Below are positions 3,514 to 4,489 of a stretch of 64,000 bases of DNA, in pieces. The position numbers and the translations under genes are program-made. The notes beneath the pieces are model-generated. The model was not told the DNA's origin, did no database searches, and saw nothing but the letters and a program-made list of their open reading frames with translations. Position 1 is the stretch's first letter. The number at the start of each line of letters is the position of its first letter. Source of the DNA: Escherichia phage HY03. The stretch is from sequence record NC_031047.1. The stretch is one strand, 5' to 3'.

Positions 3514-4443
3514 ATGTCTATTGCAGATTTAAAATCCCGTTTGATTAAAGCTTCCACTTCTAAAATGACTGCAGAGCTTACTAAAAGCAAGTTCTTTAAT
3601 GAAAAGGATGTGGTTCGTACTAAAATTCCAATGCTGAATATTGCAATTAGCGGTGCGTTGGACGGTGGCATGCAGTCTGGTTTAACTATTTTCGCAGGGC
3701 CTTCTAAACATTTTAAATCTAATATGTCACTGACAATGGTAGCAGCTTATTTGAATAAGTATCCTGATGCTATCTGTTTGTTCTATGACTCAGAGTTTGG
3801 TATCACTCCGGCTTATCTTAAGTCTATGGGTGTTGACCCGGAACGAGTAATTCATACGCCAATCCAATCAGTTGAACAGCTGAAAATTGATATGGTGAAT
3901 CAGCTTGAAACTATTGAGCGTGGTGAAAAGGTTATTGTATTCATCGACTCAATTGGTAATATGGCTTCTAAGAAAGAAACGGAAGATGCCTTGAATGAAA
4001 AATCTGTGGCAGATATGACTCGTGCTAAATCACTGAAGTCATTATTCCGTATTGTTACTCCTTATTTTAGTATTAAAAACATTCCATGTGTTGCGGTTAA
4101 CCATACAATTGAAACAATTGAACTGTTTAGTAAAACCGTGATGACAGGTGGTTGTGTTATTGCTGGTACTAAAATCCAGATGTCCGATGGTTCTACTAAA
4201 GCAGTTGAAGATATTCGTCCAGGTGAACGTGTTAAAACCATGGTCGGTGATAATGAAGTAACTTATGTTTGGGACCCAGAAACTCTGGCTGAAGGTACTC
4301 CTGAATGTTTCGAAATTGAATTCGAAGACGGTTATAAAGTAACTACTTCAGATACCCACAAGTTCCTGGTAATGGTTAAAGACATTCCAACTTGGGTTGA
4401 AGCTAAAGATTTAGTAGCTGGAATGGATTGTGTTGTAAGGTAA
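3514..4443 (+). CDS. uvsX: UvsX recombinase N-terminal part (aa 1-213) fused to split-intein N fragment (aa 214-309)
   Basis: N-extein matches RecA/UvsX through ...FSKTVMTGG; then CVIAGTKIQMSDG (intein block A, Cys1) and TSDTHKF (block B); stop at 4441. Confidence 0.85.
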   Translation: MSIADLKSRLIKASTSKMTAELTKSKFFNEKDVVRTKIPMLNIAISGALDGGMQSGLTIFAGPSKHFKSNMSLTMVAAYLNKYPDAICLFYDSEFGITPAYLKSMGVDPERVIHTPIQSVEQLKIDMVNQLETIERGEKVIVFIDSIGNMASKKETEDALNEKSVADMTRAKSLKSLFRIVTPYFSIKNIPCVAVNHTIETIELFSKTVMTGGCVIAGTKIQMSDGSTKAVEDIRPGERVKTMVGDNEVTYVWDPETLAEGTPECFEIEFEDGYKVTTSDTHKFLVMVKDIPTWVEAKDLVAGMDCVVR

Positions 4444-4446
4444 TAA

Positions 4447-4489
4447 ATATGGGTACCGGACTAATGTATATTTTTGAGGTACCCATATG
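4447..4489 (+). promoter_or_regulatory. 11-bp perfect inverted repeat (atatgggtacc / ggtacccatat) sequestering the SD and ATG of the endonuclease gene
   Basis: Seen in sequence; second arm ends at the ATG (4487); preceded by late-promoter-like AATAAATA at about 4442. Confidence 0.45.

What the first reader, a model, noticed from the sequence alone, without database searches (positions are those of the whole stretch)
4442..4489. Start codon of the uvsX-embedded endonuclease is buried in an 11-bp hairpin preceded by a late-promoter-like AATAAATA
atatgggtacc (4447..4457) pairs perfectly with ggtacccatat (4478..4488); the second arm ends in the endonuclease ATG and overlaps its GAGG. The octamer AATAAATA at about 4442..4449 would start late transcripts inside the first arm, freeing the RBS. 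The same layout (AATAAATA followed by a hairpin ending at the ATG) occurs upstream of the td intron endonuclease at about 53607..53640, so both endonucleases look translationally silenced in early read-through RNA and released late.
Basis: partly seen in the sequence, partly recalled or inferred. Interest (0 to 1): 0.4.

Follow-up and report, generated by a model that had tools for sequence, protein, structure and literature searches.

The report
Late-promoter hairpin switch on uvsX endonuclease
The selfish endonuclease gene that splits this T4-like phage's uvsX recombinase gene very likely uses a control device already known from phage T4: an RNA hairpin hides its translation start on early transcripts, and a late promoter inside the hairpin makes shorter RNAs that can be translated.

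Summary
4447-4457 pairs perfectly with 4478-4488 (11 bp, 20-nt loop). The 3' arm covers GG of the GAGG Shine-Dalgarno and AU of the ATG at 4487. AATAAATA lies at 4442-4449.

With the T4 late-promoter geometry (octamer at -13..-6) the late start falls at 4455, inside the 5' arm. The predicted cost of opening the ribosome site then drops from 12.9 to 0.9 kcal/mol. The two established T4 cases in this window behave alike: I-TevI 14.6 to 4.5, soc 9.0 to 4.9.

The helix is conserved in four other phage genera, with four compensatory pair changes. Unrelated hairpins occlude the endonuclease start in 16 of 18 distinct uvsX split loci.

The gene is a Seg-like GIY-YIG homing endonuclease lying between the halves of a split intein in uvsX, a "fractured gene". 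Hairpins carrying TATAAATA upstream of such endonucleases were described as a class in 2009, so this is a new member of a known kind.

Two caveats apply. The uvsX-N stop codon is 3 nt from the stem, so terminating ribosomes may open it early. No transcript data exist.

One extra finding: 4452-4469 copies the uvsX homing site (15/18), like the I-TevI operator.

The parts
3435..3460 (+). Putative middle promoter upstream of uvsX: a MotA-box-like AATGCCTAA at 3435-3443 and TATAAT at 3455-3460. It would be the source of read-through RNA.
   Evidence: Sequence read. The likeness to the T4 uvsX middle promoter rests on my recollection and was not tested.
3514..4443 (+). uvsX N-terminal part (residues 1-205, ...KTVMTGG) fused to a 104-residue N-intein (residues 206-309, CVIAG...DCVVR), ending in the tandem stops TAATAA.
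   Evidence: (RecA, Hint).
4442..4449 (+). AATAAATA, a T4 late-promoter-type octamer. Taken as -13..-6, it predicts a late transcription start at 4455.
   Evidence: geometry from PMC1524935. The ATAAATA core is kept in Tequatrovirus, Karamvirus and the Gelderlandvirus phage CF-SP2.
4447..4457 (+). 5' arm of the hairpin (ATATGGGTACC). It is present only in RNAs that start upstream.
4458..4477 (+). 20-nt loop. Its 5' half is conserved across genera. GA of the Shine-Dalgarno GAGG (4476-4477) lies in the loop.
4478..4488 (+). 3' arm (GGTACCCATAT). It covers GG of GAGG, the spacer and AU of the start codon.
4452..4469 (+). GGTACCGGACTAATGTAT, 15 of 18 identical to the uvsX intein-insertion (homing) site GGT|ACAGGCGTAATGTAT. 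It spans the predicted late start and is a candidate operator or a relic of extein sequence.
4449..4490 (+). 13-codon upstream ORF (MGTGLMYIFEVPI). Its TGA overlaps the endonuclease ATG as ATGA. That overlap is not conserved outside the closest relatives.
4487..5209 (+). Free-standing Seg-like GIY-YIG homing endonuclease, 240 aa, with NUMOD3 and a C-terminal helix-turn-helix like that of I-TevI.
5352..5999 (+). 35-residue C-intein (MKIKS...GIVTHN) fused to the UvsX C-terminal part, which starts at Thr+1 (TGVMYSAD...).
53607..53640 (+). I-TevI control region in the td intron: AATAAATA at 53607-53614, hairpin arms 53609-53619 / 53628-53638, GAGG at 53629-53632, ATG at 53638. This is the established paradigm.
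   Evidence: PMC2988022 section 12.
12785..12826 (+). soc control region, an internal comparator: TATAAATA at 12785-12792, hairpin arms 12794-12804 / 12816-12826, ATG at 12823.
   Evidence: PMC2988022 section 12 lists soc.

Best explanation
The hairpin and octamer form a T4-type temporal translation switch for a homing endonuclease gene that sits between the two halves of a split intein in uvsX.

Early and middle transcripts that read through uvsX-N carry both arms. The 11-bp helix, plus 3 outer pairs, buries half of the Shine-Dalgarno sequence, the spacer and the AUG, so 30S subunits load poorly and little endonuclease is made while uvsX is being expressed.

Late in infection, gp55-RNA polymerase starts at AATAAATA (4442-4449), about position 4455. 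That RNA lacks all but 3 nt of the 5' arm, the ribosome site is open, and the endonuclease is translated.

Shown here: the helix, its conservation and covariation, the promoter-type octamer and its geometry, the predicted energetics, and the same design at homologous loci. Inferred: the actual transcript start, and the difference in translation.

A possible extra layer is autorepression, with the endonuclease binding the homing-site-like 18-mer (4452-4469) that spans the late start, as I-TevI does.
For: 1. Structure. The 11-bp perfect helix has an MFE of -17.7 kcal/mol. The cost of opening -13..+3 in read-through RNA is 12.9 kcal/mol. That ranks 7th of 90 ORF starts in the window, whose median is 4.7.

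2. Switch. From the predicted start at 4455 the cost falls to 0.9 kcal/mol. The established cases in the same window behave alike: I-TevI 14.6 to 4.5, soc 9.0 to 4.9.

3. Promoter.
- [AT]ATAAATA occurs 12 times in the window against about 25 expected.
- Seven of the 12 lie 18-37 nt upstream of an ORF start on the same strand. Six are soc, I-TevI, I-TevIII, a 1289-aa ORF, a 218-aa ORF in the same minus-strand cluster, and the holin (the two unnamed ORFs look like tail-fibre genes 34 and 36 by size and position; not tested). The seventh is this endonuclease.
- A at -13 is tolerated (PMC1524935).

4. Covariation. Across five distinct junctions (Tequatrovirus, including RPN226, Karamvirus, Bragavirus, Gelderlandvirus) 96% of cells pair. 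Four of 11 pairs show changes on both sides, 0 of 500 shuffles reach this, and slid registers pair only 19-55%.

5. Constraint. The untranslated region is 78-94% identical between genera, while flanking third codon positions are 42-64% identical for the two more distant genera and 74-82% for RPN226.

6. Convergence. In 16 of 18 distinct uvsX split loci with an endonuclease, including metagenomic ones with unrelated stem sequences, at least 10 of the 16 nt of -13..+3 pair with an upstream arm. Wherever but one (L046) a TATAAATA- or CTAAATA-type motif is present, the predicted start falls within or after the 5' arm.

7. No intrinsic terminator separates uvsX-N from the endonuclease on the + strand.

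8. Literature. The mechanism is established for I-TevI, e, soc, 49 and Aeh1 mobE (PMC2988022 section 12; PMC3014915 section 29). Hairpins with TATAAATA were seen in 15 of 16 and 10 of 16 endonuclease 5' UTRs of fractured genes (PMC2677866 section 14).
Against: - There are no transcript 5' ends and no protein timing data for this gene.
- Only GG of GAGG is paired, the loop is long (20 nt), and the fold z-score is modest (-2.67).
- The uvsX-N stop codon (4441-4443) is 3 nt from the stem. A terminating ribosome should unwind much of the 5' arm, so read-through RNA that is being translated may not be silent.
- A 13-codon uORF (4449-4490) could relay ribosomes to the ATG.
- In Bragavirus the octamer is ATTAAATA. 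In Salmonella phage SEA1 it is AATAAATG and the hairpin no longer covers the start. The promoter is therefore not universally kept.
- RPN226's opening cost is only 6.9 kcal/mol in the 120-nt context.
Confidence: 0.65

Rival explanations
1. The hairpin is a translational-coupling device rather than a timer. It blocks independent ribosome entry, but ribosomes finishing uvsX-N at UAA 4441-4443 melt the stem. They may also reinitiate at AUG 4449, translate the 13-codon uORF and stop at the UGA that overlaps the endonuclease AUG. The endonuclease would then be made at a low level coupled to uvsX-N throughout infection.
For: - The stop codon is 3 nt from the stem base.
- The uORF starts 5 nt after that stop and ends in ATGA on the endonuclease start.
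- In about half of the homologous loci the 5' arm starts within 10 nt of the stop.
- Phage SEA1 has turned the octamer into an in-frame ATG behind a GAGG, which amounts to direct coupling.
Against: - The ATGA overlap is lost in RPN226, Karamvirus and Bragavirus, where the uORF ends 14 or 32 nt past the ATG in another frame. Helix and octamer are kept there.
- The stop-to-stem distance ranges from overlapping the stop codon (L050) to about 19 nt among loci.
- Coupling does not explain the conserved late-promoter motif placed so that the start removes the 5' arm.
Confidence: 0.15
2. The element is mainly a DNA-level or historical feature: a decayed copy of the uvsX extein junction carried with the endonuclease cassette, or an operator for the endonuclease. 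On this view the inverted repeat has little effect on translation. It may instead act as an RNA 3'-end or processing and stability element for the uvsX-N message.
For: - 4452-4469 is 15 of 18 identical to the homing site. Only 7 of 2000 shuffles and 1 of 1591 real 80-nt windows score as high.
- The Karamvirus copy aligns over 32 nt, from -14 to +18 around the junction.
- Processing at an RNase E-like site in Aeh1 mobE transcripts (Gibb & Edgell 2007) is from my recollection; that paper was not held.
Against: - A relic would not keep pairing through four compensatory changes.
- A relic would not be replaced by unrelated start-occluding helices in other lineages.
- There is no U-tract, so it is not an intrinsic terminator, and there is no Rfam match.
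- An operator role is compatible with the main explanation and does not replace it.
Confidence: 0.12
3. The coincidence is chance: an AT-rich genome gives an AATAAATA-like word, helped by tandem TAA stops, and one 11-bp inverted repeat per 64 kb.
For: - About one perfect 11-bp inverted repeat per window is expected in shuffles.
- The octamer partly arises from the tandem stops TAATAA.
Against: - Both octamers are depleted in the window, and most copies sit in promoter positions.
- The helix ends on the start codon.
- Covariation and cross-genus conservation exceed those of synonymous sites.
Confidence: 0.03

Closest known systems
I-TevI control region in the T4 td intron (Gott et al. 1988; Edgell et al. 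2004; Gibb & Edgell 2010; reviewed in PMC2988022 and PMC3014915)
   Same: - Both are GIY-YIG endonucleases embedded in an early/middle gene.
- Both have AATAAATA immediately 5' of, or inside, the 5' arm.
- In both the 3' arm holds the Shine-Dalgarno sequence and the AUG.
- In both the late start removes the 5' arm.
- Both carry a homing-site-like sequence over the promoter: 15/20 for I-TevI, 15/18 here.
- The I-TevI element is present in this same window at 53607-53640.
   Different: - The host element here is a split intein, not a group I intron, so the rationale shown for I-TevI (protecting intron folding and splicing from ribosomes) does not apply.
- Only half of GAGG is paired here, and the loop is 20 nt rather than 8.
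- Here the upstream ORF stops 3 nt from the stem, against about 100 nt for td exon 1.
Endonuclease 5' UTR hairpins of 'fractured genes', that is split intein plus free-standing homing endonuclease (Dassa et al. 2009, PMC2677866)
   Same: - The genomic arrangement is the same: host-N + IntN / endonuclease / IntC + host-C.
- A hairpin lies upstream of the endonuclease start and carries a TATAAATA-type motif.
- The origin is phage, and the host is a DNA-metabolism gene.
   Different: - The host gene here is uvsX, which is not among the hosts that paper names (gp41, IMPDH, DnaE, NrdA, NrdJ, ligase, terminase).
- The element is found in cultured coliphages rather than marine metagenomes.
- In this window the endonuclease ORF does not overlap the downstream gene (142-nt gap), whereas 15 of their loci overlap by 6-69 bp.
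mobE in the split nrdA gene of Aeromonas phage Aeh1 (Gibb & Edgell 2007, 2009; summarised in PMC2988022 and PMC2677866)
   Same: - An endonuclease splits an essential gene.
- A late promoter is combined with a hairpin that sequesters the ribosome binding site.
- Expression is limited to late infection.
   Different: - mobE is an HNH enzyme.
- The nrdA halves reassemble without an intein.
- The Aeh1 late promoter motif is CTAAATA.
T4 late genes in early regions: soc, e, 49
   Same: A late promoter lies in or at the 5' strand of a helix that hides the start site on read-through RNA. soc is in this window (12785-12826) with similar predicted energetics.
   Different: These are phage structural, lysis or packaging genes, not mobile-element genes.

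Membership tests
T4-type late-promoter / start-site-sequestering hairpin switch | The Shine-Dalgarno sequence and/or AUG is paired in a stable helix on RNA that starts upstream. | tested here: met
   An 11-bp helix covers GG of GAGG through AU of the AUG. Opening cost is 12.9 kcal/mol against a window median of 4.7.
T4-type late-promoter / start-site-sequestering hairpin switch | A late promoter (TATAAATA type, at -13..-6) is placed so that late RNA lacks the 5' strand of the helix. | tested here: met
   AATAAATA at 4442-4449 predicts +1 at 4455, leaving 3 nt of the arm, and the opening cost drops to 0.9 kcal/mol (PMC1524935). This is a sequence-level test only.
T4-type late-promoter / start-site-sequestering hairpin switch | The gene lies on early/middle read-through transcripts. 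| tested here: inconclusive
   It is on the same strand as uvsX, there is no + strand terminator between them, and a middle-promoter-like site lies upstream of uvsX. No RNA data exist.
T4-type late-promoter / start-site-sequestering hairpin switch | The helix is maintained in evolution. | tested here: met
   Four compensatory pairs, 96% of cells paired, 0 of 500 shuffles as high. Unrelated helices do the same job at homologous loci.
T4-type late-promoter / start-site-sequestering hairpin switch | A late-specific 5' end and late-specific translation are demonstrated. | not testable with these tools
   This needs primer extension or dRNA-seq and reporter or western assays.
Fractured gene (split intein plus free-standing homing endonuclease; Dassa 2009) | The host gene is broken at one point, and the two ORFs end and begin with intein halves. 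| tested here: met
   ...MTGG|CVIAG...DCVVR* and MKIKS...VTHN|TGVMYSAD. Intact uvsX reads MTGG|TGVMY. The fused halves match the Npu DnaE and gp41-1 inteins. intein_Cterm scores above its cut-off.
Fractured gene (split intein plus free-standing homing endonuclease; Dassa 2009) | A homing endonuclease ORF lies on the same strand between the halves. | tested here: met
   4487-5209: Seg-like, NUMOD3, and related to I-TevI at E = 3e-9.
Fractured gene (split intein plus free-standing homing endonuclease; Dassa 2009) | The 3' end of the endonuclease ORF overlaps the downstream ORF (seen in 15 of the loci in that paper). | tested here: not met
   There is a 142-nt gap in the window. The overlap is present (4 nt) in the Karamvirus, Gelderlandvirus and Klebsiella phage relatives. 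It is a frequent feature, not an obligatory one.
Fractured gene (split intein plus free-standing homing endonuclease; Dassa 2009) | The two halves trans-splice to give intact UvsX. | not testable with these tools
   The catalytic residues are present: Cys1, a TxxH-like TSDTH, and terminal HN followed by Thr+1. No protein data exist.
GIY-YIG (Seg / I-TevI-like) homing endonuclease | An N-terminal GIY-YIG catalytic domain. | tested here: inconclusive
   - 46% identity to T4 SegG over residues 1-103.
- An ERENF motif aligned with that of I-TevI.
- PHROG homing-endonuclease families match.
- TIGR01453 scores 55.0 bits against a cut-off of 56.05.
- The Pfam GIY-YIG model was not reported at E <= 0.01.
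I-TevI-type transcriptional autorepression | A sequence resembling the enzyme's homing site overlaps its own late promoter or transcription start. | tested here: met
   4452-4469 is 15 of 18 identical to the junction GGT|ACAGGCGTAATGTAT. Only 7 of 2000 shuffles and 1 of 1591 genomic windows score as high. It is absent in six other lineages.
I-TevI-type transcriptional autorepression | The endonuclease binds that site and lowers late transcription. | not testable with these tools
   This needs EMSA or footprinting and promoter fusions.
Intrinsic (rho-independent) terminator | A G+C-rich stem with a short loop followed by a U-tract. | tested here: not met
   No + strand site was found in 3300-6400. 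The loop is 20 nt and no U-run follows directly.

The most novel reading that the evidence does not exclude
The 50-nt leader would be a three-in-one module carried by the endonuclease cassette. It would combine a late promoter, the 5' strand of the start-occluding helix, and a mimic of the uvsX homing site (4452-4469, 15/18) that the endonuclease binds to repress its own late transcription.

That would extend the I-TevI autorepressor principle from intron-borne to intein-associated free-standing endonucleases. Contiguous mini-inteins occupy the same uvsX site in metagenomes, so the endonuclease invaded an existing intein. The mimic therefore cannot be a target-site duplication and must have travelled with the cassette.
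Probability: 0.3. Interest if true: 0.5.

Novelty: new member of a known kind. Interest (0 to 1): 0.3.

Why it matters
The regulatory device itself is textbook T4 biology, so confirming it adds an instance and not a principle.

The value lies in the setting. A split-intein "fractured" uvsX with its endonuclease occurs in cultured phages that grow on E. coli K-12, such as ELT1 and SYGD1. The fractured-gene design was described in 2009 from marine metagenomes. Here its parts could be tested directly in a tractable system: timing of endonuclease expression, trans-splicing of an essential recombinase, and possible autorepression.

The comparative series found here also illustrates the proposed route by which split inteins arise. 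It runs from contiguous mini-intein, to split intein plus endonuclease, to split intein after endonuclease loss, all at one uvsX site.

Tried and rejected
- IMG/VR scan with the endonuclease protein: it returned only Proteus phage Pm5461 again plus distant NUMOD3 matches, so it added no junctions.
- Positive control for the operator test, I-TevI leader against this phage's own td exon junction: no similarity. Exon 2 here (CTTCCATTCAACATTGCATCA) differs from the T4 homing-site sequence I remember. The control was uninformative and I rely on the published 15/20 figure (PMC2988022).
- uORF relay as a conserved device: rejected as a general mechanism, because the ATGA overlap is lost in RPN226, Karamvirus and Bragavirus.
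- Intrinsic terminator: none on the + strand.
- Rfam: no match at E <= 1.
- Homing-site mimic as a universal feature: rejected, because L044, L046, L048, L051, L008 and L013 lack it.
- Literature: three searches found no paper on a uvsX intein or split uvsX in the held library. Gibb & Edgell 2007 (PMC1913452) is not held.
- Failed calls: two search calls and one find call failed on term length or word count, and one BLAST query was one base too long.

Full report
**What is in the sequence**

The window comes from a T4-like phage of the genus Tequatrovirus. The nearest records are about 97% identical over 3500-6000.

uvsX is broken into three ORFs on the + strand.
- 3514-4443 encodes UvsX residues 1-205 (...KTVMTGG) followed by an N-intein (CVIAG...DCVVR).
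- 4487-5209 encodes a 240-aa endonuclease.
- 5352-5999 encodes a 35-residue C-intein (MKIKS...GIVTHN) followed by the rest of UvsX (TGVMYSAD...).

Intact uvsX in a relative reads MTGG|TGVMY at exactly this point. The fused intein halves match the Npu DnaE and gp41-1 inteins among solved structures. The C-terminal splicing model scores above its cut-off.

The endonuclease is Seg-like. Its first 103 residues are 46% identical to T4 SegG. It has a NUMOD3 motif. It aligns with I-TevI from the ERENF catalytic motif to the C-terminal helix-turn-helix, E = 3e-9.

This arrangement is a "fractured gene" in the sense of Dassa et al. 2009 (PMC2677866).

**Checking the observation**

- 4447-4457 (ATATGGGTACC) is the reverse complement of 4478-4488 (GGTACCCATAT), with 20 nt between the arms.
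- The start codon is 4487-4489 and GAGG is 4476-4479. The 3' arm therefore holds GG of the Shine-Dalgarno sequence, the spacer and AU of the AUG.
- AATAAATA is at 4442-4449 and overlaps the tandem stops TAATAA of the upstream ORF.

The helix is the minimum-free-energy fold of the 65-nt context, at -17.7 kcal/mol with z = -2.67.

Perfect inverted repeats of at least 11 bp with loops of 3-40 nt number 6 in the window, against 1.05 in dinucleotide shuffles. A single repeat alone would not be compelling. Its position and its evolution are.

**Is the octamer a plausible late promoter?**

The T4 late promoter is TATAAATA at -13..-6, and T or A is common at -13 in T4-like phages (PMC1524935).

TATAAATA occurs 6 times in the window against 10.6 expected, and AATAAATA 6 times against 14.0 expected. 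This depletion fits selection against stray late promoters.

Of the 12 copies, 7 lie 18-37 nt upstream of an ORF start on the same strand. Those ORFs are:
- soc;
- I-TevI;
- full-length I-TevIII;
- a 1289-aa ORF at 43595-47464 and a 218-aa ORF at 41752-42408, which by size and position look like tail-fibre genes 34 and 36 (not tested);
- the holin;
- this endonuclease.

With the octamer taken as -13..-6, +1 falls at 4455, inside the 5' arm.

**Energetics**

I computed the cost of forcing -13..+3 open. In read-through RNA it is 12.9 kcal/mol, 7th of 90 ORF starts in the window, whose median is 4.7.

| Gene | Read-through RNA (kcal/mol) | Predicted late RNA (kcal/mol) |
|---|---|---|
| uvsX endonuclease | 12.9 | 0.9 (4.9 if the start is 2 nt upstream) |
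| I-TevI | 14.6 | 4.5 |
| soc | 9.0 | 4.9 |

The new site is quantitatively like the two experimentally established sites in the same window.

**Comparative evidence**

Six database phages carry the same insertion. One of them, RPN226, has a G-C to A-U double change in the stem.

Endonuclease homologues at 48-69% amino-acid identity sit at the same uvsX site in Karamvirus, Gelderlandvirus, Bragavirus, a Klebsiella phage, Jiangsuvirus and a Vibrio phage.

I compared five distinct junctions from the enterobacterial group.
- The 11-bp helix pairs in 96% of cells.
- Four pairs change on both sides.
- No shuffle out of 500 reaches this, and slid registers pair only 19-55%.

The untranslated leader is 78-94% identical between genera. 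Third codon positions on either side are 42-64% identical for the two more distant genera and 74-82% for RPN226.

A metagenome scan with the N-intein gave 22 more loci. Among 18 distinct endonuclease-bearing junctions overall, 16 have at least 10 of the 16 nt of -13..+3 paired to an upstream arm. Their stem sequences are unrelated.

Eleven of the 18 carry a TATAAATA-type or CTAAATA-type motif in the 5' arm or loop. In all but one of them (L046) the predicted start falls within or after that arm. This repeats, for uvsX, what Dassa et al. reported for other hosts: hairpins in 15 of 16 leaders, 10 of them with TATAAATA (PMC2677866 section 14).

**What is already known**

For I-TevI, the hairpin forms only on early and middle transcripts, and the late promoter gives RNAs that lack it (PMC2988022 section 12). 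Deleting the 5' strand raises I-TevI throughout infection (Gibb & Edgell 2010, as summarised in PMC3014915 section 29).

The same design is documented or proposed for e, soc, 49, I-TevII, I-TevIII, segB and Aeh1 mobE. The td-intron site named in the finding is that paradigm itself.

I found no paper on a split or intein-containing uvsX in the held library.

**Caveats and rivals**

The uvsX-N stop codon is 3 nt from the stem base. A terminating ribosome should unwind much of the 5' arm, so silencing on actively translated read-through RNA may be incomplete.

A 13-codon uORF (4449-4490) starts 5 nt after that stop, and its UGA overlaps the endonuclease AUG. That overlap is lost in RPN226, Karamvirus and Bragavirus, where helix and octamer persist. 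I therefore rank coupling below the timer model.

The hairpin is not an intrinsic terminator and matches no Rfam family.

Salmonella phage SEA1 is an escape variant. Its octamer has become AATAAATG, creating an in-frame ATG behind GAGG, and a 20-nt insertion moves the hairpin away from the old start.

**An additional feature**

Positions 4452-4469 (GGTACCGGACTAATGTAT) form the top of the 5' arm and the conserved half of the loop, and they span the predicted late start. They are 15 of 18 identical to the uvsX sequence across the intein insertion point (GGT|ACAGGCGTAATGTAT).
- Only 7 of 2000 shuffles score as high.
- Only 1 of 1591 real 80-nt windows scores as high.
- The match begins at the junction codon.
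- The Karamvirus copy aligns over 32 nt and shares its own lineage's AATGTACTCA.

I-TevI has just such a homing-site-like operator over its late promoter (15/20) and represses itself through it (PMC2988022 section 10).

Contiguous mini-inteins occupy the same uvsX site in four metagenome loci. The endonuclease therefore invaded an existing intein, and the mimic is not a target-site duplication. It is either an operator or a relic carried by the cassette.

Six other lineages lack it, so it is not general.

**Verdict**

It is a new member of a well-described kind, not a new mechanism.

What is missing is direct evidence: late-specific 5' ends near 4455, and stem-dependent translation.

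Noticed in passing
window 4452-4469: An 18-mer in the endonuclease leader is 15 of 18 identical to the uvsX intein-insertion (homing) site and spans the predicted late start. It parallels the I-TevI operator. It reads as a decayed copy of the extein: M-G-T-G-L-M-Y against G-T-G-V-M-Y.
   Followed up: yes
window 4449-4490: A 13-codon uORF starts 5 nt after the uvsX-N stop, and its TGA overlaps the endonuclease ATG as ATGA. That overlap is not conserved in RPN226, Karamvirus or Bragavirus.
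   Followed up: yes
L053, L060, L061, L062 (metagenome loci; N-intein match from 1483, 1501, 120 and 1501): Contiguous mini-inteins of about 130 aa, with no endonuclease, sit at the same uvsX site (...GG|C...HN|T or SN|T). They are the likely ancestral state of the split arrangement.
   Followed up: partly
L058 575-748 and L059 1122-1295: A split uvsX intein with the endonuclease deleted. A 171-nt gap still encodes a remnant that looks like an endonuclease C-terminal zinc finger (my impression from the sequence; not tested), and is followed directly by the C-intein ORF.
   Followed up: partly
L047 about 1818-1857: The N-intein ORF is followed by a very strong terminator-like hairpin (AATAAAAAGAGGATC...GATCCTCTTTTTATT), and the next ORF starts 194 nt downstream. 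The two halves may be transcribed separately.
   Followed up: no
L012 1444-1503 (Salmonella phage SEA1): The octamer is mutated to AATAAATG, which creates an in-frame ATG behind GAGG, and a 20-nt insertion lies between the hairpin and the old ATG. This variant appears to have swapped the switch for direct coupling to uvsX-N.
   Followed up: partly
window 5210-5351: The 142-nt spacer between the endonuclease and uvsX-C varies by indels among close relatives: a 34-nt deletion in SP21535, and about 100 nt shorter in RPN226. Only the last 40 or so nt before the ATG are conserved. In other genera the two ORFs overlap by 4 nt.
   Followed up: partly
window 54523-54545: td exon 2 begins CTTCCATTCAACATTGCATCA. 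This differs at several positions from the T4 I-TevI homing-site sequence I remember (CTACCGTTTAATATTGCGTCA). It may be a diverged or cleavage-resistant exon context.
   Followed up: no
window 59082-59929: TATAAATA lies 30 nt upstream of a full-length (269 aa) I-TevIII-like HNH endonuclease ORF, placed after the first part of nrdB (58293-58970). A further homing endonuclease ORF lies at 57655-58296, and a Seg-like one at 1956-2597.
   Followed up: partly
window 62244, 20190, 15266, 31527; 37588-38394 (- strand): Other ORF starts have predicted opening costs of 13-19 kcal/mol. They include an Alc-like inhibitor of host transcription (62244-62750) and an ADP-ribosylase-like ORF (15266-15889). 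I did not examine them for promoters or conservation.
   Followed up: no
window 4549-4583: A 14-nt inverted repeat (13 of 14 complementary, 7-nt loop) lies inside the endonuclease coding region.
   Followed up: no
window 37576-37583 (- strand): AATAAATA lies 18 nt upstream of the holin gene t (36901-37557). This fits the A-at--13 variant being used at a genuine late gene.
   Followed up: partly
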